A stretch of 64,000 bases of DNA, taken from NCBI GenBank assembly GCA_963712965.1, contig CAVQJZ010000003.1:66878-130877 (forward strand), written 5' to 3'. A model generated the notes under the pieces. The model made no database searches. It was not told the DNA's origin and was given only the letters and a program-made list of their open reading frames with translations. The stretch comes from an uncultured Pseudomonadota bacterium. Its GTDB lineage: Bacteria; Pseudomonadota; Gammaproteobacteria; DASZBR01. The position numbers and the translations under genes are program-made. Below, piece after piece: positions 2,339 to 26,850 of this stretch; positions within the stretch are counted from its first letter, which is position 1; each line of letters begins with the position of its first letter.

Positions 2339-3454
2339 TTATGAATAAATACTACCACCAGTTAATGGTTCAGGCACGCCGGTTGTTGCAGGAATGCTCA
2401 GTGGTAATTTCAAAATACTCCGCACAGCAAGCCAGGCAAATATTTGTGCTTCAAAAGACGCATTGTTCCAGCTAGTTTCACTGAGTGTTAACCCCAGGCG
2501 GGTTTCTAATTCTTTTTTAATCACGGGATTATGCGAACCGCCGCCAAGCAATACCCAATGTTTTGCATGATAACTTTTGTCTACAAGATGGATGCTTTGT
2601 GCAATGCAATCTGCGGTGAATGCTTCTAGTATTGCGCAACCATCTTCAATTGATAAATTATTTATTTCAGCAATTAAATCAAAATCATTAATATCAAATG
2701 ATTTCGGTGGTTTTTTTTGTAAATAAACATAATAAGTTTGGCGTAGTTTCTCTAAAGCTGTTTTATTTATTGTGCCGCGTAATCCGTATTGCCCATCATA
2801 ATCCATCGTTTCTTTGTTCTGTGTTTTTTGTTTAACGAATCGATCAATTAATCCATTGCCAGGACCTGTATCAAATCCTAAAAGATCATTAAATGTGGGC
2901 CCTTTAATGAAAGATACATTGGCAATGCCGCCGCAATTAACTATCGCTAAAGGAATTTTGTGATCGCGAATCGCTAATGCTTGATGATACAGTGGCGCAA
3001 ATGGTGCGCCCTGCCCGCCTGCTGCAATGTCATTTTTGCGAAAATCAGTGACGGTGGTAATACCTAATTTTTTGGCTAACCATTGCCCATCGCCTATTTG
3101 CACTGTAATTTTTTCATGTGGTGCGTGATACAACGTTTGACCGTGATAGCCAATGCAATCAATTTGTTTTGGAGTTAGTTTTAATTGATGAATTAATTCA
3201 GCAATGGCTTGATAATGTAATTCAGTAGAACGTTGTATGACAGTATGCGCTGTTTGATCAAGGTTGCCTTTGGCGGCTTTTGTTATTTTTTCTAATTGTT
3301 TAAGTTCGTGATGAAATTCAGGCGAGTATTTTAGTGAGTAATAACCAATTTCTTGAATCTGATTTTTACCATCCGTTTTTAATGCGCTCACATCAATGCC
3401 ATCCATCGATGTGCCGCTCATGGTGCCAATAGAAATAAATTCTTTATTGTTCAT
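2339..3454 (-). CDS. anmK: Anhydro-N-acetylmuramic acid kinase
   Basis: MSGTSMDGIDVS N-terminal motif and full-length AnmK-like sequence. Confidence 0.9.
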   Translation of the reverse strand: MNNKEFISIGTMSGTSMDGIDVSALKTDGKNQIQEIGYYSLKYSPEFHHELKQLEKITKAAKGNLDQTAHTVIQRSTELHYQAIAELIHQLKLTPKQIDCIGYHGQTLYHAPHEKITVQIGDGQWLAKKLGITTVTDFRKNDIAAGGQGAPFAPLYHQALAIRDHKIPLAIVNCGGIANVSFIKGPTFNDLLGFDTGPGNGLIDRFVKQKTQNKETMDYDGQYGLRGTINKTALEKLRQTYYVYLQKKPPKSFDINDFDLIAEINNLSIEDGCAILEAFTADCIAQSIHLVDKSYHAKHWVLLGGGSHNPVIKKELETRLGLTLSETSWNNASFEAQIFAWLAVRSILKLPLSIPATTGVPEPLTGGSIYS

Positions 3455-4509
3455 TGGCGTACCTTTTTTAGTGCCAACGCTTTCTTCTCAATCCAAAACC
3501 ATGATGTCATGGCAAGCAATAATGTTATTGGCAGCGCACATAAAAATAACATAAAAGGATTAGATAAATGAAAAAAATGCATTAACGTTTGTTGTACGGG
3601 AAATGCATAAATATAAACGCCATAGGAAAAATCGCCATAACGCGTTAATCGATTAAAATGAATTTTTTGCTGATAGGTGAGCAATAAAATGCCATACGTA
3701 AGCGTTATATAGAACATGGTTGAATATAAAAAAGTATGTGAAAAAATAAAGCAACTTATCACAAGAGCAATAGCAGTAAATAAATTAAGTGTAATTACTT
3801 TGCGACAGAGATATGCAATAGCACCCAGGATAAAACATCCCTCCGGTATAATAGCTGGATATAACAAGGCTCGAAGTTTTGGATCAGCGCTGACAACTGT
3901 TGGCAAATAATGAAGTGTGAATATGAAAAATAACGTCGTTAATAAAATGCTGGCAAGCAATGATTTTTTTAATAAGCGAGTTATACCAAGAAATGCAACC
4001 ATCAGATACATGCTAAATTCTATGGGTAAAGTCCATAGCGATCCATTAACTGCTGTTGGATAGCTATTATGCAAAAACACGCCTGGCAGAGCATAAATAG
4101 GATATAAAATACTATTATAAAAAATATATGTATATGTTTCATGGTTTGTAAAATAAGCTTTCAGCGATAAACTGGTGACAATGGGGCCAACGATTAGCGC
4201 CGCAAATAATACAGCAATGATCAAAGCAGGAAAAATACGCAGAACACGTGCGCGTAAATAGACAAGTAGGTCATGACGTTGGCAATAACTTCGTGTAATT
4301 AAAAATCCACTGATAATAAAAAAACACGAAACAGCTAATCCTCCAAATGTGGTTAAGCCGTGGCTAAATACAGCCAAGGGTTCGTAGGTTTTCCCCGTAA
4401 GCGGATAGCTATGAGAAAAGATGACAGCTATGGCCGCCATTAAACGAATAAAATCAAAATTATTGTTTTTTGTTTCGGCGCATACGGCTAGCTGTTTGGA
4501 TTTGATCAT
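3451..4509 (-). CDS. Acyltransferase family 3 integral membrane protein (O-acyltransferase)
   Basis: Polytopic membrane protein with an FDFIRLMAAIAVIFSHSY-type acyltransferase-3 N-terminus. It has 4-nt overlaps with both neighbours. Confidence 0.75.
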   Translation of the reverse strand: MIKSKQLAVCAETKNNNFDFIRLMAAIAVIFSHSYPLTGKTYEPLAVFSHGLTTFGGLAVSCFFIISGFLITRSYCQRHDLLVYLRARVLRIFPALIIAVLFAALIVGPIVTSLSLKAYFTNHETYTYIFYNSILYPIYALPGVFLHNSYPTAVNGSLWTLPIEFSMYLMVAFLGITRLLKKSLLASILLTTLFFIFTLHYLPTVVSADPKLRALLYPAIIPEGCFILGAIAYLCRKVITLNLFTAIALVISCFIFSHTFLYSTMFYITLTYGILLLTYQQKIHFNRLTRYGDFSYGVYIYAFPVQQTLMHFFHLSNPFMLFLCALPITLLLAMTSWFWIEKKALALKKVRQ

Positions 4510-6204: not shown

Positions 6205-7376
6205 AGCTTACGCCGTTTATATTTGGCATATTGGTATTGATGGGTTCTTTAGGTCAATTCGCTGCGGATATTTACGCCCCTTCTCTTCCAGCAATCAGCA
6301 AAGCATTTGCTGTGAGCAGTGCTGAAGTGCAAATTACCATGTCTGTTTTTATGTTGGCATTTGCTATTTCACAATTATTTTATGGTCCATGGTCTGATAA
6401 AGTCGGGCGACGCAAACCGGTATTAAATGGCATTTTGTTAGCGCTTGTAGGAAGTATTGCTTGTTTGTTGGCACCCAACATTTACGTATTAATGGCTGGG
6501 CGCTTTTTGCAAGGGTTAGGCGCTGGTGTCACATTGTGTTTAGGTCGCGTGATCCTGCGCGATATTATGTCTGGCACGCAGCTTGCTAAATTCGGTTCAT
6601 TTTTTAATATTATTTTTTCAACGGTCGTTGCTATTGCGCCAATGCTTGGCGGGTACTTGCAAGATTATTTTGATTGGCGCGCATCATTTATTTTTTTATT
6701 ACTCTATGGAATATGCCTATTTATTATTATTTGGCGTGCGTTTCCTGAAACACATTTTAATTTAAATCCCCTAGCCACTAAAGTTAGTGAAATGACTAAA
6801 AATTATCTTATCTTGTTAAAGTGTAGAACATTTATTGGTTATGTGATTTCTTCAAGCTGCGCCTATAGCGGTTTAGTTTGTTACATGACGGTGGCGAGTT
6901 TCTTATTGCAACGTGTGGTAGGTTTAACCGCATCGCAATTTGGTTGGTTATCGTTTGTCACCGCCGCCGCTGTTTCATCCACTGCCTTTATTAATAGTCG
7001 ATTGGTGGCGAAAAAAGGCATTAATTACATGGTTAATCTGGGCAATTTATTGATGTTGCTTTCGGGTATAACTATGTTGACGCTTGCCCTGTTTGGTTTA
7101 ATTAATGTATGGGTCATCATGATTCCGATGGTATTTTTTAGCATGGGTTGTGGTTGCACATTTGCTAATGCATTTGCCGGTGCTTTTCACCCTTTCCCGC
7201 ATATGGCAGGAAGTGCAGGCGCGTTATATGGATGCTTGCAAATTTTAGGCACATCATTAGCCATAGGTATTATCGCGCTTGCGCATACATCGAATCAGTT
7301 GCCATTGGCGATTATGTTATTTTCATTAGGATTAATTTCACGATTGTCTATGCGCTATTTGGTGGGGAATGCGTAA
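6192..7376 (+). CDS. MFS transporter, Bcr/CflA drug-resistance subfamily (copy 2)
   Basis: Paralogous to copy 1 (DIYAPSLPAI, GRRKPVL, GRFLQGLGAG). ATG at 6192 is the likely start. Confidence 0.85.
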   Translation: MQNVKLTPFIFGILVLMGSLGQFAADIYAPSLPAISKAFAVSSAEVQITMSVFMLAFAISQLFYGPWSDKVGRRKPVLNGILLALVGSIACLLAPNIYVLMAGRFLQGLGAGVTLCLGRVILRDIMSGTQLAKFGSFFNIIFSTVVAIAPMLGGYLQDYFDWRASFIFLLLYGICLFIIIWRAFPETHFNLNPLATKVSEMTKNYLILLKCRTFIGYVISSSCAYSGLVCYMTVASFLLQRVVGLTASQFGWLSFVTAAAVSSTAFINSRLVAKKGINYMVNLGNLLMLLSGITMLTLALFGLINVWVIMIPMVFFSMGCGCTFANAFAGAFHPFPHMAGSAGALYGCLQILGTSLAIGIIALAHTSNQLPLAIMLFSLGLISRLSMRYLVGNA

Positions 7377-8022
7377 TATGATGAAAACCATTTTATGTTA
7401 TGGCGATTCACATGTATGGGGTTTTATTCCAGGCAGTTTCGATGCCAATACAGGTTTGTCTAAGCGTCATCCGAGAAACAAACGCTGGACTGGTGTGCTG
7501 CAAGAATTACTTGGCAATAATTATTATGTTATTGAAGAAGGTATTAATGGTCGCACAACAGATTTAGATGAAATCACTCCCGGGCGACCTAATCGCAATG
7601 GCTTCGCGTTATTATCCGCGGCGTTTGATGCGCACTACCCCGTGGATCTTGTTATTTTTATGTTGGGCAGCAACGATACCAAAATACAATTTAATCGCGC
7701 AGTTAATGAAACAAAAGAAGCGATGAGAAAATTAATTCATTTTACTAAAACATCTGCATTGCATCAGCCAAAAATATTATTAATTGCCGCACCACCTATT
7801 ATCAAAATAGCAACACTACATCCTCAGTTAACAGATGAATCTGTTGAAAAATCAACAATGCTTGGCGCGCTTTATCAAACATTAGCGAAAGAAGAAAATT
7901 GTGCTTACTTAGATGCTTCTCAGATTGTGACAGCGAGCGAATTAGATGGTGTTCATTTTGATGAACAACAATGTACATTGTTAGCGCAAGCTGTGGCGGA
8001 AATGGTGAAGAAGATAATTTAG
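7369..8022 (+). CDS. SGNH/GDSL-family hydrolase (arylesterase/lipase-like)
   Basis: ILCYGDSHVWG (block I GDS), GINGRTT and GSND blocks, and a C-terminal DGVHF block. Confidence 0.8.
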   Translation: MRNMMKTILCYGDSHVWGFIPGSFDANTGLSKRHPRNKRWTGVLQELLGNNYYVIEEGINGRTTDLDEITPGRPNRNGFALLSAAFDAHYPVDLVIFMLGSNDTKIQFNRAVNETKEAMRKLIHFTKTSALHQPKILLIAAPPIIKIATLHPQLTDESVEKSTMLGALYQTLAKEENCAYLDASQIVTASELDGVHFDEQQCTLLAQAVAEMVKKII

Positions 8023-21603: not shown

Positions 21604-21742
21604 CCCCTCTCCCCTTGGGGGAGAGGGTTAGGGTGAGGGGTAAATTTCAACGTTTTACCCTCACCCGTTCGCTTCGCCCACCTACGTGACTTCGTCACTT
21701 CGGTGCGCCTAGCTCACGACCTCTCCCATAAAGGGAGAGGTG
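21604..21742. repeat. Family B composite GC-rich palindromic element inside the nuoI-nuoH spacer
   Basis: Sequence ccctctccccttgggggagagggttagggtgagggg + accctcacccgttcgcttcgcccacctacgtgacttcgtcacttcggtgcgcctagctcacgacctctcccataaagggagagg. The second module is essentially identical at 34592-34676. The first module recurs at 25539-25578 (inverted), 31933-31969 and 47955-48112. Confidence 0.8.
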
Positions 21743-21744
21743 AA

Positions 21745-22770
21745 TTAACTAAACCATGGCCCTAATTTTAATTGCACAGCTACTGCAACGACCGCAATCC
21801 ATACCAATGTGACTGGAATTAATATCTTCCATCCCAAACGCATAATTTGGTCGTAACGATAACGCGGCAATGTGGCACGCATCCATAAAAATAAAAACAA
21901 CAGCAAGCTGGTTTTTATTAACAACCATACGATACCGGGTATCCAAGCAAATAATAGCGCTATTCCTGGAATACCTTCAAAGGGCGACAACCAACCGCCT
22001 AAAAACAATAAACTTCCAATCATTGATACTAAAATCATGTTGGCGTATTCAGCTAAAAAGAAAATACCAAATGTAATGCCTGAATATTCCACATGAAATC
22101 CAGCTACAATTTCCGATTCGCCTTCGGCCACATCAAAAGGCGCGCGATTGGTTTCAGCCACCGCTGAAATCCAATACACCACAAATAACGGCAATAAAGG
22201 TAATAAATACCAATGCCAGATTCCACCTTGTTGATGCATTACAATTTTTTCTAAGTTCATGCTGCCAGCAGCAAGTAACACACCCACAAACGCAAAGCCC
22301 ATGGCAATTTCATACGAAATAGTTTGTGCGGCTGAACGCAGCGCGCCTAAAAAAGCATATTTAGAATTAGCCGCCCATCCTGCAATTAAAATTCCATAAA
22401 CACCTGTAGAGCTCATTGCAAATAAAAACAACACACCGGCATGCACATTGGCTAATACCAATTGTGGTTGAAATGGAATCACAGCCCATGCTGATAATGC
22501 AGGAGCAATCGCCAATACAGGCGCTAATAAATATAAATAACGGTTAGACGCTGTGGGTATAATAATTTCTTTGCAAAACATTTTAATAATGTCGGCAATC
22601 GGTTGCGCCACACCAAAATAACCGACGCGATTAGGTCCAATACGCCCTTGAATAAAACCGACCACTTTACGTTCAACGAAAGTTAAATAAGCAACGGCCG
22701 CTAATAACGGAACGACAATTAAAATAATTTTTACTAATGTCCAAACAATAAACTCAATGGTTTCTAACAT
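21745..22770 (-). CDS. nuoH: NADH-quinone oxidoreductase subunit H
   Basis: NuoH/ND1-like ([20 protein letters not shown]). Confidence 0.95.
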
Positions 22771-25024
22771 TGACGTACCCTACGCTGTGATCCAACGCTG
22801 CTGTTTCACTAAATCCACTTGGAATAACCACGCATTGATTAACAACACTTTCATCAATGACAACAGGTAATGCCAATTCGCGATTAGCTTGTTGTATGGT
22901 TAATGTATCTCCTGCACGAACTTTTAATAATGCCGCTGAGTGCGAATTAATTTTTACAACTGCATTCGTATTTAATGCGGCTTTTTGTAATGCAGGCGAT
23001 TTGCGTAGCAACATATCTTGTCGATACATTGGCCAAGCACTGACACAGTCCCATACATTACTTGGATTTTTTTCAAGGGTCTTGCGCATTAGCGGAATTT
23101 TTAGATTAATTTGCGCATCAGTTTGTGGTGTTAACGCACGAATTTCTTTAACTACATCATCGGCTGTCTCGTAATTAAAATTCTGCAATTCCAATAAATT
23201 ACCTAACACACGTAAAATTTTCCATGCCGGTCGCGCTTGATCAATCGACGAAACACACTGAGCAAAATTTTGCCAACGTCCTTCGATATTAATATAGGTG
23301 CCTGTGTTTTCTGCAAAAATGCTGATCGGCAATAATATCTCTGCGTGATCTAATAGTGATGCTGTTTTATAAGGCGTGAAGGCAATCACAGATTCTGCTT
23401 GTTCGAGTGCTTTTAATGCTTGCGAACTATTCGCTAGATCACAATCAGGCTCAATATTAAGTAATACATAGGTGTTTAATTTTGCTTCAAAAGCTTGCTG
23501 GGTATTTAATCCCGCCATCGTGAGTGATTCACCTGCTGTTTTTCGATGTGGCACTGCACCTGCTAACCATGCACCCGCACTATTGGCACCTTCACTCAAA
23601 TACGCAACTTTTGCATTAGAACCTTGCGCGATTTGATGCACGGTTGCACGCAATACAGAAGCATACGGATGATTCATCGCATCAGCACCTAACATAATTA
23701 AGGTGTTTTCATTGTCTGAAAGGTATTGTGCCATATCTTCAATGGCAGAAATAAATGTGGATGGCGAAACAATTTTCTTTTGTGTTAAGGCAAAATGCAT
23801 CGGGTAATCTACGCTGTTTACACATAATACTTTCGTGCCTTGCAAACTTGCTTTGCGAATACGATGCGCAATAATAGGTTGTTCATGACGAATATTGCTG
23901 CCAATAATCAAAATAGTTTGTTGTTTTTCAATATCGGCAATATTAATACCTAATGAAGGATACAGCGGCATCTGCCCTTGGTCTTCCATATCGGTTTGAT
24001 GCAAACGGTGATCAATATTATTGGAGCCTAAGTCACGCATTATTTTTTGTAATAAATAAAATTCTTCGAGTGTGCTATTAGGTGATGCGATAGCCGCAAG
24101 TTGTTGAGGTTGTGTGTGTTTTAATTTTTTCGCTACCGTATTGAGCGCTTCTGTCCAGTCCGCTTCTTGCCACTGCCCTGCTTTTTTAATCATGGGTCTG
24201 GTTAAACGATCTTTGCTGTACAACCCTTCGTAACTAAAACGATCGCGATCACTGATCCATGTTTCATTAATGCTTTCATTTTCTTTTGGTACAACGCGCA
24301 TCACAACACCACGACGCGTATGCAAATAAATATTCGAACCAACCGCATCATGTGGTGCAATAAATTCTTGTTGCTCTAATTCCCACGCACGTGCAGTAAA
24401 ACGAAATGGTTTTGATGTCAGCGCGCCCACGGGACATAAATCGATAACATTGCCAGACAATTCAGAACTTAACATTTCACTTTTTAAATAGGTGCCAATT
24501 TGCATATGTTCGCCGCGACCAATTGTGCCTAATTCACGTTGGCCTGCCACTTCTTGACCAAAACGCACACAGCGTGTGCATTGAATACAACGTGTCATAT
24601 CCGTTGCAATAAGCGAACCTAAATCTTCATCTTTCACAGAACGTTTTGTTTCACTGTAACGAGAAACATCAGGGCCATAACCCATCGACATATCTTGTAA
24701 TTCACACGCACCCCCTTGATCACAAATGGGGCAATCGAGTGGATGATTAATCAATAAAAATTCCATCACTGATTTTTGTGCATCAATGGCTTTGGCTGAT
24801 TTTGTAAATACTTTCATGCCAGGTGTGACAGGTGTGGCACATGCCGGTAATGGTTTGCCGACTTTTTCAACTTCGACTAAACACATACGGCAATTCGCCG
24901 CGACTGATAATTTTTTGTGGTAACAAAAACGTGGAATAGCAATGCCTGCATTATCAGCAGCTTCGATAATCATCGTTCCTTGCGGAATTTCTAATTTTTG
25001 ACCATCAATTTCTATTTCGATCAT
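22754..25024 (-). CDS. nuoG: NADH-quinone oxidoreductase subunit G
   Basis: 2Fe-2S and 4Fe-4S Cys motifs plus a molybdopterin-like domain. The start is set at MIEIEIDGQ (ATG 25024) rather than the track's 25075, which would overlap the upstream ORF. Confidence 0.93.
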
Positions 25025-25028
25025 GAAT

Positions 25029-25292
25029 TTACCCGTGTTTTTGTGTTGTTGCAGATACATGCAACAAACCATCAATGCTTAAATCTTCATCAATTTCTGG
25101 CCAATGTATGCCATAACCACCGCCAGAAATTTGCCAGTGTTTTCGTTGTGCAACAGAAGCACTACGCAATTTTGGATACCATGTTAGCGGTACAGAAATA
25201 ATGCGTCCGTCCATTAAGTCGACGACAAGAAATTTTTCCGATATATGAACGTTTGCTACACGCTCATCAATTTTTTTTGCTAAAAAATTCAT
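25029..25292 (-). CDS. DUF2442 domain protein
   Basis: FLVVDLMDGRIISVPLTWYPKLRSAS...W.ISGGGYGIHWPEIDEDLSIDGLL is the typical DUF2442 pattern. Its stop lies 4 nt before the nuoG ATG. An alternative start is at 25307. Confidence 0.75.
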   Translation of the reverse strand: MNFLAKKIDERVANVHISEKFLVVDLMDGRIISVPLTWYPKLRSASVAQRKHWQISGGGYGIHWPEIDEDLSIDGLLHVSATTQKHG

Positions 25293-25509
25293 ACCAAGCC
25301 TCAACAAAAATTAATCTATATTCAATAACGATTTCTTTTATTTTTCGTAACTCTTTTTCACTAAACCCAATATTATAAGCAGGCTCAATAGGCAATAACC
25401 AAAATTTTGCACTTAAATTGTCTCGATCAACATGAATATGTTCTTTTTCACCCTGCTCATTACTATAAAAATAGAACCGATAAGGTCCATAACGTAATAT
25501 TGTTGGCAT
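25267..25509 (-). CDS. DUF4160 domain protein
   Basis: GPYRFYFYSNEQGEKEHIHVDRDNLSAKFWL is the typical DUF4160 pattern. It overlaps the DUF2442 gene. Confidence 0.75.
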   Translation of the reverse strand: MPTILRYGPYRFYFYSNEQGEKEHIHVDRDNLSAKFWLLPIEPAYNIGFSEKELRKIKEIVIEYRLIFVEAWYEFFSKKN

Positions 25510-25538
25510 ATCTTATTATTGTCCTTTATTGTAAAAAT

Positions 25539-25578
25539 TACCCCTCACCCTAACCCTCTCCCACAAGGGGAGAGGGGG
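25539..25578. repeat. Family B element (first module, inverted orientation)
   Basis: acccctcaccctaaccctctcccacaaggggagaggggg lies between nuoF and the DUF4160 gene. Confidence 0.7.
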
Positions 25579-25581
25579 AAC

Positions 25582-26850
25582 TTAATTCAAATTACACTTC
25601 TTATGTTCAATGTGATACACAAACTCATTGCGAAAATGTTTAATAAAACTTTGGACAGGCATAGCTGCTGCATCACCTAATGCACAAATGGTGCGGCCCA
25701 TAATTTTACCCGCGACATTATCTAATAATTCTAAATCACCGACTTTACCTTCACCATGCAAAATACGATGTAATATACGCGCCATCCAACCGGTTCCTTC
25801 ACGGCATGGTGTGCATTGCCCGCAAGATTCTTCATAATAAAAATGCGCGATGCGCGCGAGAACTTTTACCATGCAGGTATGTTCATCCATCACAATCACA
25901 GCACCTGAACCTAACATGGACCCTGCTTTGGAAATGCTGTCGTAATCCATATTGGTTTCTAACATGACATCACCGGGTAATACTGGCATCGATGATCCAC
26001 CAGGAATTACCGCTTTAATCTTGGCGTTGTTTTTTACGCCACCGGCAAGCGCTAATAAATCTTTGAATGGCATACCTAAAGGCACTTCGAAATTACCTGG
26101 GTTATTAACGTGCCCAGACACACTAAAAACTTTGCAACCACCATTGTTGGGTTTGCCTAATTCTAAAAACCATTGCCCGCCTTTTTCTAAAATCACAGGA
26201 ACAGAGGCAAATGTTTCGGTATTGTTGATCGTTGTTGGTCGACCATATAAACCATAATTTGCAGGGAATGGTGGTTTGAAACGTGGTTTCCCTGGTTTGC
26301 CTTCGAGAGATTCCATCAATGCAGTTTCTTCACCGCAAATATAAGCACCTGCGCCTCGATGATTGTACAAATCAAAATCAATCTCAGAGCCAGCAATATT
26401 TTTTCCTAACAAACCAGCGGCGTAGGCTTCTTTTAATGCTTCTTCACAACGCTGAAAAGGTTCGTCATATTCACCGCGAATATAGTTATAACCAACTGTC
26501 GCGCCCATCACGTATCCACCAATCGCCATTCCTTCGATGACTTGATGTGGATTGAAACGCAAAATATCACGATCTTTACACGTACCTGGTTCGCCTTCAT
26601 CAGAATTACATAAGACATATTTTTGCCCAGGCGTTAAACGTGAAATAAAACTCCATTTCAGTCCGGTAGGAAATCCAGCGCCGCCTCGACCACGCAACGC
26701 AGAAGCTTTAAGTTCAGCAATAATTTGTTCGGGTGGTGTTTTTTCACGCAAAATTTTGCGCCACGTGGAATATCCACCCACGCTTTCATACGTTTTGAGT
26801 GTCCAAGATTTCTCTAAATGTCGTGTTCTAAAACAAATGTCATTAGCCAT
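25582..26850 (-). CDS. nuoF: NADH-quinone oxidoreductase subunit F
   Basis: [17 protein letters not shown] site and an [12 protein letters not shown] 4Fe-4S motif. Confidence 0.95.

What the first reader, a model, noticed from the sequence alone, without database searches (positions are those of the whole stretch)
25029..25581. DUF4160/DUF2442 gene pair intercalated between nuoF and nuoG
Two small overlapping co-oriented genes (80 aa DUF4160; ~87 aa DUF2442) sit inside the complex I operon. The DUF2442 stop is only 4 nt from the nuoG start codon, so nuoG translation is probably coupled to it. A family B repeat flanks the pair upstream. This two-gene module is widespread and often suspected to be toxin-antitoxin-like, but it has no demonstrated function. 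Embedding it in an essential respiratory operon would be an effective addiction or hitch-hiking site, and I do not know it as a nuo component.
Basis: partly seen in the sequence, partly recalled or inferred. Interest (0 to 1): 0.6.

Follow-up and report, generated by a model that had tools for sequence, protein, structure and literature searches.

The report
Toxin-antitoxin pair inside complex I operon
A small toxin-antitoxin gene pair of a family already shown to work in Dickeya sits between two essential respiratory genes (nuoF and nuoG); the same arrangement turns up patchily in five related uncultured bacteria, so it looks like a selfish cassette lodged in a respiratory operon and not a part of complex I.

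Summary
On the minus strand the order is nuoF (26850-25582), a 72-nt spacer with a GC-rich palindromic repeat, an 80-aa DUF4160 gene (25509-25267), an 87-aa DUF2442 gene (25292-25029, 26-nt overlap), 4 nt, then the nuoG ATG (25024).

The claim of "no demonstrated function" is out of date. DUF4160/DUF2442 is the DhiT/DhiA type II toxin-antitoxin family, validated in Dickeya dadantii.

The nuo-embedded arrangement is not unique. I found it in five other lineages, including another genus of the same family whose toxin carries a fixed frameshift. It is absent from the closest sister of each bearer, from 28 of 30 class-level relatives, and from about 190 other loci of this pair.

The nuo-embedded copies cluster in the pair tree but are scattered on the NuoF+NuoG tree. 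Against its nearest relative, the cassette has 8% third-codon differences versus 36% in the flanking nuo genes (p=4e-14). This points to recent exchange by recombination through the conserved flanks.

The spacers leave little room for a promoter. The antitoxin has its own ribosome-binding site, and nuoG has only a weak one. A relative also carries RelB/ParE between nuoH and nuoI.

Toxicity, co-transcription and coupling are untested.

The parts
25582..26850 (-). nuoF (422 aa), the upstream flank of the cassette
   Evidence: Pfam Complex1_51K, SLBB and NADH_4Fe-4S; 80-85% identical to the NuoF of relatives.
25540..25581 (-). GC-rich palindromic (REP-like) repeat in the nuoF-toxin spacer; hairpin at 25554-25576
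   Evidence: 4 copies in the window against 0 in shuffles. 23 copies in the genome against 0 for the control. Present in L123 but not in the four other nuo-embedded lineages, so it is a later addition and not part of the cassette. The fold is not exceptional (z = -1.2).
25267..25509 (-). dhiT-like toxin gene (DUF4160, 80 aa)
   Evidence: PF13711 E=2.6e-15. Weak hit to NCBIfam toxin_DhiT, 15.7 bits against a cut-off of 100. AF2 model pLDDT 91.8 with five strands and two helices. No PDB or BFVD structural neighbour. The invariant H24, D28, K35, W37, G48 and W72 are present; the near-invariant H17 and P22 are replaced by N and K.
25029..25292 (-). dhiA-like antitoxin gene (DUF2442, 87 aa); overlaps the toxin gene by 26 nt
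   Evidence: PF10387 E=2.5e-23. Its only solved relative is the uncharacterised protein 3K8R. 54-72% identical to hundreds of copies across phyla.
25299..25302 (-). Shine-Dalgarno core (GAGG) for the antitoxin, inside the toxin's 3' end
   Evidence: Duplex energy with the anti-SD is -5.6 kcal/mol here. It is GGAGG, -9.3 kcal/mol, in G002, L128, L129 and L130.
25022..25028 (-). 4-nt spacer (ATTC) plus the nuoG ATG: a putative termination-reinitiation junction
   Evidence: Sequence. The nuoG SD is weak (-3.8 kcal/mol here; -0.6 to -3.9 in the other bearers). Spacing is 3-8 nt in four of the six bearers.
22754..25024 (-). nuoG (756 aa), the downstream flank
   Evidence: Pfam Fer2_4, NADH-G_4Fe-4S_3, Fer4_Nqo3 and Molybdopterin.
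24966..25630 (-). Block of unusually low divergence from the nearest relative L123 (candidate recombination tract)
   Evidence: 93-100% DNA identity against 80-90% in the flanks. Third-codon differences are 14/169 in the pair against 247/685 in nuoF, nuoG and nuoH, Fisher p=4e-14. Only 1 difference falls in the last 48 nt of nuoF and 1 in the first 59 nt of nuoG.

Best explanation
This is a DhiT/DhiA-family (DUF4160 toxin first, DUF2442 antitoxin second) type II toxin-antitoxin cassette inserted exactly at the nuoF-nuoG junction of the complex I operon in an uncultured Coxiella/Rickettsiella-like gammaproteobacterium.

Shown: the domain pair, the gene order and overlap, and the tight packing. 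The arrangement recurs in six lineages and is missing from their sisters. The nuo-embedded copies cluster together in the pair tree.

Inferred: the cassette has no promoter of its own and is transcribed with nuo. The toxin uses its own ribosome-binding site. The antitoxin uses a stronger site encoded in the toxin's 3' end. nuoG, whose site is weak, is translated by reinitiation after the antitoxin stop; where the cassette is absent, nuoG overlaps the nuoF stop instead.

The cassette persists as a selfish resident for two reasons. Imprecise deletion would damage nuoF or nuoG expression, and loss may release a stable toxin. It moves between related species by homologous recombination through the conserved nuoF and nuoG flanks.

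The toxin's biochemical target is unknown. A conserved His/Glu/His/His/Asp/Lys set suggests an enzyme, possibly a nuclease.
For: Pfam hits are far above the cut-offs. A DUF4160/DUF2442 pair was experimentally shown to be a TA pair with this gene order (PMC8198452; PMC12065111). The same nuoF-T-A-nuoG order occurs in G002/L014, L123, L128, L129 and L130. It is absent from 28 of 30 class-level relatives, from L131, L132, L133 and L135, from 80 GTDB loci, from 29 class-sample loci and from 80 metagenome loci. In the pair tree the nuo label needs only 2 changes (0 of 500 shuffles as low), and the AU test does not reject a single clade (p=0.46). On the NuoF+NuoG tree the label needs 5 changes, and each bearer has a pair-less sister. 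Presence/absence leaves no scars. Against L123, dS is 0.12-0.18 in the pair and 0.67-0.98 in the flanks, with omega 0.04-0.08 and Fisher p=4e-14. The ratio of amino-acid difference between the pair and NuoFG is 0.25 for own vs L123 and 1.0-1.9 for all other comparisons. Spacers upstream of the toxin are 4-30 nt in four lineages, and no sigma-70-like site lies in the 72-nt spacer here. SD strengths are given. In G002 the toxin has one fixed frameshift, identical in four independent assemblies, while the antitoxin is intact and ends 3 nt before nuoG. A second TA (RelB-like/ParE) sits between nuoH and nuoI in L246, ending 1 nt before nuoI.
Against: Toxicity and neutralisation are untested for this divergent member, which scores only 15.7 bits on the NCBIfam DhiT equivalog model. 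The toxin here and in L123 has lost the near-invariant H17 and P22, so it may be attenuated. The low-divergence block rests on a single pair of sequences, one of them a metagenome contig, and could reflect nucleotide-level constraint or a chimeric assembly. The host tree was built from the flanking genes themselves. L129 and L130 have spacers of 52 and 28 nt before nuoG, so tight coupling is not universal.
Confidence: 0.6

Rival explanations
1. Decaying or domesticated remnant. The toxin is no longer active (attenuated here, frameshifted in G002). What selection keeps is the antitoxin ORF, as a leader that delivers ribosomes to the poorly initiating nuoG, or as protection against related toxins.
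For: G002 keeps an intact antitoxin 3 nt before nuoG after the toxin frameshift. The toxin here lacks the near-invariant H17 and P22. nuoG has a weak SD everywhere. About 14 of 65 GTDB loci have a truncated toxin next to an intact antitoxin.
Against: Five of the six nuo-embedded toxins are full length. The invariant residues are retained here. Against L123, omega is 0.04 for the toxin. Sister lineages translate nuoG without any cassette.
Confidence: 0.2
2. A single ancient insertion that was inherited vertically, with at least four independent clean losses and no lateral movement. The low divergence from L123 then reflects constraint on the nucleotide sequence (overlapping genes, embedded ribosome-binding sites, mRNA structure).
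For: The AU test does not reject one clade for all six copies. The g2 genomes have a shortened, restructured NuoF C-terminus whose stop overlaps the nuoG ATG, as expected after a deletion that removed the nuoF end together with an insert.
Against: A four- to five-fold lower third-position divergence over about 660 nt that extends into both flanking genes is hard to explain by constraint. At greater distances the pair evolves faster than NuoFG, not slower. An 8-nt nuoF/nuoG overlap recurs in separate subclades, G001/G004 and L133.
Confidence: 0.15
3. A lineage-specific accessory factor of complex I (assembly or regulation of the NuoF/NuoG module), not a toxin-antitoxin pair.
For: The position between the two N-module subunits and the co-orientation.
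Against: Close copies of the pair (54-70% antitoxin identity) occur in many phyla with no nuo genes within 4 kb. The pair is missing from the sister lineage of each bearer. The toxin is broken in G002. A relative carries an unrelated TA (RelB-like/ParE) at another nuo junction.
Confidence: 0.03
4. An anti-phage abortive-infection module.
For: The DUF4160 domain occurs as an effector domain in Menshen NsnC proteins (PMC12065111).
Against: No PADLOC or PHROGs match. The pair stands alone, with no NsnA/NsnB-like neighbours and no defence-island context.
Confidence: 0.05

Closest known systems
DhiT/DhiA (dhiTA) type II toxin-antitoxin system of Dickeya dadantii 3937 (PMC8198452)
   Same: The same Pfam domain pair (DUF4160 toxin, DUF2442 antitoxin). 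The toxin gene comes first, the genes overlap, and the proteins are small (about 80-90 aa).
   Different: Only a superfamily-level relative: 15.7 bits on the NCBIfam DhiT equivalog model against a cut-off of 100. dhiTA is a free-standing bicistronic operon with its own autoregulated promoter. Here the pair is wedged into the nuo operon, with no recognisable promoter and with its stop 4 nt before nuoG.
Copies from the best-matching GTDB set (54-70% antitoxin identity) that abut housekeeping genes in other phyla (methylmalonyl-CoA mutase in Sphingomonadales; lpxC in a Desulfuromonadales MAG)
   Same: Co-oriented and packed within 2-12 nt of a conserved housekeeping gene. In Sphingomonadales the mcm linkage is found in 24 loci from many genera, directly abutting in about half of them.
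   Different: A different host operon. Those copies lie at the end of a gene or before one, not shown to sit between two subunits of one enzyme complex.
Menshen NsnC proteins with a DUF4160 effector domain (PMC12065111)
   Same: The same toxin domain, regarded there as an effector with no known structural homologue. My Foldseek searches also found none.
   Different: There the domain is fused to NsnC inside a three-gene defence system. Here it is a stand-alone protein paired with DUF2442.

Membership tests
DhiTA-type (DUF4160/DUF2442) type II toxin-antitoxin | Toxin carries the DUF4160 (PF13711) domain | tested here: met
   56.8 bits against a gathering cut-off of 23, E=2.6e-15.
DhiTA-type (DUF4160/DUF2442) type II toxin-antitoxin | Antitoxin carries the DUF2442 (PF10387) domain | tested here: met
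   82.5 bits against 23.9, E=2.5e-23.
DhiTA-type (DUF4160/DUF2442) type II toxin-antitoxin | Toxin gene first, antitoxin second, co-oriented, with a short overlap | tested here: met
   26-nt overlap here. Intact-toxin GTDB loci mostly overlap by 17-29 nt. The Dickeya pair overlaps by 3 nt.
DhiTA-type (DUF4160/DUF2442) type II toxin-antitoxin | Orthology to Dickeya DhiT (NCBIfam NF048015 equivalog, cut-off 100 bits) | tested here: not met
   15.7 bits, E=0.018. Same superfamily, not an equivalog.
DhiTA-type (DUF4160/DUF2442) type II toxin-antitoxin | Family-invariant toxin residues retained | tested here: inconclusive
   H24, D28, K35, W37, G48 and W72 are present. The near-invariant H17 and P22 are replaced by N and K here and in L123.
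DhiTA-type (DUF4160/DUF2442) type II toxin-antitoxin | Own promoter upstream of the toxin, repressed by the antitoxin or the complex | tested here: inconclusive
   No sigma-70-like match in the 72-nt spacer. Spacers are only 4-30 nt in G002, L128, L129 and L130. A promoter inside nuoF cannot be excluded.
DhiTA-type (DUF4160/DUF2442) type II toxin-antitoxin | Toxin inhibits growth and the cognate antitoxin neutralises it | not testable with these tools
   Needs expression in E. coli or another laboratory host.
Complex I (nuo) structural subunit or conserved accessory gene | Present at this position throughout the nuo operons of related bacteria | tested here: not met
   Absent from 28 of 30 relatives, from 3 of the 5 species of the GTDB order and from L131, L132, L133 and L135.
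Menshen (NsnABC) defence system | DUF4160 fused to NsnC, with NsnA and NsnB neighbours | tested here: not met
   A stand-alone 80-aa protein whose neighbours are nuoF and DUF2442. No PADLOC hit.

The most novel reading that the evidence does not exclude
In this clade of intracellular-type gammaproteobacteria, the junctions of the complex I operon act as safe harbours for promoter-less toxin-antitoxin cassettes: DhiTA between nuoF and nuoG, and RelB/ParE between nuoH and nuoI. The cassettes take over translational coupling to the downstream nuo gene, which makes imprecise loss costly. They spread between species by homologous recombination, using the highly conserved nuo genes as homology arms. 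Toxin release would then be tied to nuo operon transcription.
Probability: 0.3. Interest if true: 0.65.

Novelty: new variant of a known kind. Interest (0 to 1): 0.5.

Why it matters
Toxin-antitoxin modules are usually described as free-standing, self-regulated operons on mobile or variable DNA. Here a validated TA family appears to have no promoter of its own, sits between two subunit genes of an essential respiratory enzyme, and ends a few bases before the next subunit's start codon. The arrangement recurs in several lineages, and an unrelated TA occupies a second junction of the same operon in a relative.

If the inferences hold, this gives a concrete, testable case of three things. First, selfish cassettes can exploit conserved core genes both as protection against deletion and as homology arms for spread. 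Second, an orphan antitoxin can be retained after the toxin dies. Third, respiratory-operon expression could be linked to growth arrest.

For annotation, the practical point is that these two genes are not complex I subunits.

Tried and rejected

2. Toxin mechanism by fold: the model is confident (pLDDT 91.8), but Foldseek found nothing below E=0.3 in the PDB or BFVD. A PDB sequence search gave only noise for the toxin, and only the uncharacterised 3K8R for the antitoxin.

3. Defence and phage libraries: no PADLOC or PHROGs hits.

4. The hairpin as a terminator: its fold is not better than shuffles (z = -1.2) and no U-run follows it directly. I treat it as a genome-wide REP-like repeat.

5. 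Wider searches for more nuo-embedded copies all found none. These were the GTDB-wide scan (80 loci), a 400-species class sample and JGI metagenomes (80 loci). The extra cases came only from matching contig lengths between the NuoF and DUF2442 hit lists.

6. Upstream gap statistics for non-nuo copies were unreliable, because spurious antisense ORFs in GC-rich genomes dominated them. I did not use them, apart from the Pfam-verified mcm and lpxC neighbours.

7. Programmed frameshift in the G002 toxin: the lesion looks like the loss of one T from ATTTCT, with no slippery heptamer. I read it as a mutation.

8. Short direct repeats at the cassette borders (a possible target-site duplication) were inspected by eye. 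Nothing convincing was found.

9. Literature searches for TA modules inside nuo operons gave no precedent. This is an absence in the searched library only.

Full report
**What is there.** All genes in this region are on the minus strand.
- nuoF lies at 26850-25582.
- A 72-nt spacer follows.
- An 80-aa ORF lies at 25509-25267.
- An 87-aa ORF lies at 25292-25029, counted from the ATG that aligns with relatives. A TTG at 25307 would give 92 aa.
- Four bases (ATTC) follow, then the nuoG ATG at 25024.

The two small ORFs overlap by 26 nt. Pfam assigns them to DUF4160 (E=2.6e-15) and DUF2442 (E=2.5e-23), both far above the gathering scores, and confirms NuoF and NuoG. The pair is single-copy in the 1.08-Mb, 7-contig assembly.

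The spacer holds the hairpin CCCTCTCCCCTTGTGGGAGAGGG. It has 4 copies in the window (none in shuffles) and 23 in the genome (none for the control). It is a dispersed REP-like repeat and not part of the cassette.

**What the family is.** The statement that the pair has no demonstrated function is out of date.
- NCBIfam carries a model named "type II toxin-antitoxin system toxin DhiT". The toxin here hits it weakly (15.7 bits against a cut-off of 100).
- Boss et al. (PMC8198452) showed that the DUF4160/DUF2442 pair of Dickeya dadantii 3937 is co-transcribed with the toxin gene first.
- In that work the toxin stopped growth of D. dadantii and E. coli, the antitoxin prevented this, and the promoter was repressed by the antitoxin and more strongly by the complex.
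- A later analysis of the Menshen system lists DUF4160 as an effector domain with no structural homologue, usually followed by DUF2442 (PMC12065111).

The pair in this window is a superfamily-level relative of DhiTA, not an ortholog.

**Distribution of the nuo-embedded arrangement.**
- Among 30 class-level relatives, the nuoF-nuoG gap is 11-205 nt (one locus lacked a nuoG match). Only G002 has the pair there. G002 is in the same GTDB family but a different genus.
- The GTDB order holds just five species. The pair is present in two of its three genera.
- In the three g2 genomes the nuoF stop overlaps the nuoG ATG.
- The closest protein in a 5.8-billion-sequence collection (97% identical) lies on a Logan contig, L123, with the same nuoF-T-A-nuoG-nuoH order.
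- Matching contig lengths between the DUF2442 and NuoF hit lists revealed three more cases, L128, L129 and L130. All three have intact toxins.
- Of the four NuoF relatives I looked up from the top of the hit list, none has the pair (L131, L132, L133, L135).
- No nuoF or nuoG lies near the pair in 80 GTDB loci, in 29 loci from a 400-species class sample, or in 80 JGI metagenome loci.

The arrangement is thus confined to one clade of Coxiella/Rickettsiella-like bacteria. The best named NuoF hits are Rickettsiella grylli at 82% and a Legionellaceae MAG at 80%. Within that clade the arrangement is patchy.

**History.**
- In a concatenated toxin+antitoxin tree, the six nuo-embedded copies form two groups: (L128,(own,L123)) and (L130,(G002,L129)). 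The second group is sister to copies from Chlamydiota and Verrucomicrobiota MAGs.
- The label "nuo" needs only two changes on that tree (0 of 500 shuffles as low), and a single clade is not rejected (AU p=0.46).
- On a NuoF+NuoG tree the bearers are scattered and need five changes. Each bearer has a pair-less sister: L130 with L135, L128 with L133, and own+L123 with g2.
- Sister comparisons show clean presence or absence without scars.

Two processes fit these data, and both may act.
- Loss by deletion. The g2 genomes have a shortened, restructured NuoF C-terminus that runs into the nuoG start, as expected if a deletion removed the nuoF end together with an insert.
- Lateral replacement by homologous recombination. 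The strongest sign of this is the comparison with L123. The two sequences are 85% identical overall. dS is 0.67-0.98 in nuoF, nuoG and nuoH, but 0.12 and 0.18 in the toxin and antitoxin genes. Third-codon differences are 14/169 in the pair against 247/685 in the flanks (Fisher p=4e-14). The low-divergence block runs from about 48 nt inside nuoF to about 59 nt inside nuoG.
- At all greater distances the pair is 1.0-1.9 times as divergent as NuoFG in protein sequence, so a generally slow rate does not explain the block.

I read this as a recent exchange of the cassette between two species through the conserved flanks. The caveat is that it rests on one sequence pair, and one of the two is a metagenome contig.

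**How it is probably expressed (inferred).**
- The distance from the nuoF stop to the toxin start is 72 nt here and 70 nt in L123, both with the REP element. It is only 30, 9, 26 and 4 nt in G002, L128, L129 and L130.
- No sigma-70-like site was found in the spacer here. The cassette most likely has no promoter of its own and rides on the nuo transcript.
- The antitoxin start is preceded by GGAGG (-9.3 kcal/mol with the anti-SD) in four lineages and by TGAGG (-5.6) here. This site is encoded by the conserved LEAW/VEAW codons of the toxin.
- nuoG has a weak site in every lineage, whether bearer or empty (-0.6 to -5.5).
- Where the site is empty, nuoG overlaps or closely follows nuoF. In four of the six bearers it starts 3-8 nt after the antitoxin stop. 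Termination-reinitiation after the antitoxin ORF is therefore a reasonable mechanism for nuoG translation.
- That mechanism would make imprecise deletion of the cassette costly.

**The G002 case.** The toxin gene has a single 1-nt deletion that truncates it at 37 codons. The rest of the frame is still open. The lesion is identical in four independent assemblies from different samples. The antitoxin is intact and ends 3 nt before nuoG. About 14 of 65 GTDB loci likewise have a truncated toxin next to an intact antitoxin. This is the usual decay route of TA pairs. Here it also fits retention of the antitoxin ORF as the coupling ORF for nuoG.

**The toxin.**
- An alignment of 34 toxins shows invariant H24, D28, K35, W37, G48 and W72, and near-invariant H17, E18, E21, P22 and H26.
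- The copy here and in L123 has N17 and K22. It sits on a long branch.
- It is nevertheless nearly identical between the two species, with omega 0.04.
- The AlphaFold model is confident (pLDDT 91.8; five strands then two helices). It has no neighbour in the PDB or BFVD.
- The target is unknown. An enzymatic, possibly nucleolytic, activity is a guess from the conserved polar residues and from the company the domain keeps in Menshen systems.

**Context that makes the case more general.**
- The relative L128/L246 carries three insertions in its nuo operon: an NMT1-family gene between nuoE and nuoF, DhiTA between nuoF and nuoG, and a RelB-like/ParE pair between nuoH and nuoI that ends 1 nt before nuoI.
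- Among the best-matching GTDB loci, the pair is linked to the methylmalonyl-CoA mutase gene in 24 Sphingomonadales loci. It abuts that gene by 2-12 nt in about half of them. In a Desulfuromonadales MAG it lies 7 nt upstream of lpxC.
- Tight, co-oriented lodging against conserved housekeeping genes seems to be a habit of these close copies. The nuo junction is this clade's version of it.

**Comparison and verdict.** This is a new, divergent member of the known DhiTA family in an unusual operon-embedded configuration that apparently lacks its own promoter. It is not a complex I component. My literature searches found no report of a TA cassette inside a nuo operon.

Earlier notes of this scan call the organism Coxiella/Berkiella-like and record palindromic repeats in three nuo spacers. 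My repeat counts agree with the second point.

Untested: co-transcription, toxicity and rescue, coupling of nuoG, and the recombination inference beyond one sequence pair.

Interest is moderate. The family's function is already known, but the arrangement, its recurrence and its apparent mode of spread are new and directly testable.

Noticed in passing
L246 (Logan SRR21360301 contig, 29 kb): 721-1767, 3123-3633, 7037-7487: A relative's nuo operon carries three insertions: an NMT1/THI5-like gene between nuoE and nuoF, the DUF4160/DUF2442 pair between nuoF and nuoG, and a RelB-like/ParE toxin-antitoxin pair between nuoH and nuoI whose stop is 1 nt before nuoI.
   Followed up: partly
L014 2800-2913 (G002); also L125, L126, L127: The DUF4160 toxin in another genus of the same family is truncated by a single 1-nt deletion that is identical in four independent assemblies. 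The antitoxin remains intact 3 nt upstream of nuoG.
   Followed up: yes
L072, L088, L092, L096, L103, L107, L114, L115, L119 and other Sphingomonadales loci, about 3780-4260: Close copies of this TA pair are linked to the methylmalonyl-CoA mutase gene in 24 Sphingomonadales loci and directly abut it (2-12 nt, same strand) in about half. In a Desulfuromonadales MAG (L049) the pair ends 7 nt before lpxC.
   Followed up: partly
window 21605-21627, 25554-25576, 31933-31955, 47954-47976: The GC-rich hairpin repeat CCCTCTCCCCTTGNGGGAGAGGG has 23 copies in the 1.08-Mb assembly. Two of them lie in spacers of the nuo operon (nuoI-nuoH and nuoF-toxin).
   Followed up: partly
L015, L016, L017 (G003, G004, G001), nuoF-nuoG junction: In the sister genus without the pair, NuoF lacks the conserved C-terminal HKKC motif, and its stop codon overlaps the nuoG ATG by 4-8 nt. 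This pattern could be the footprint of a deletion that removed an insert.
   Followed up: no
window 25447-25461 (toxin codons 17-21) and the same codons in L123: The toxin here reads NEQGEKEH where 90% or more of relatives read HEPNEPPH, so the near-invariant His17 and Pro22 are lost. The toxin lies on a long branch yet is almost identical between the two species.
   Followed up: partly
L060, L062, L064, L046 (Chlamydiota MAGs): The nearest non-nuo relatives of the G002/L129/L130 cassette group are copies in environmental Chlamydiota and one Verrucomicrobiota MAG. This hints at exchange among bacteria that share protist hosts.
   Followed up: no
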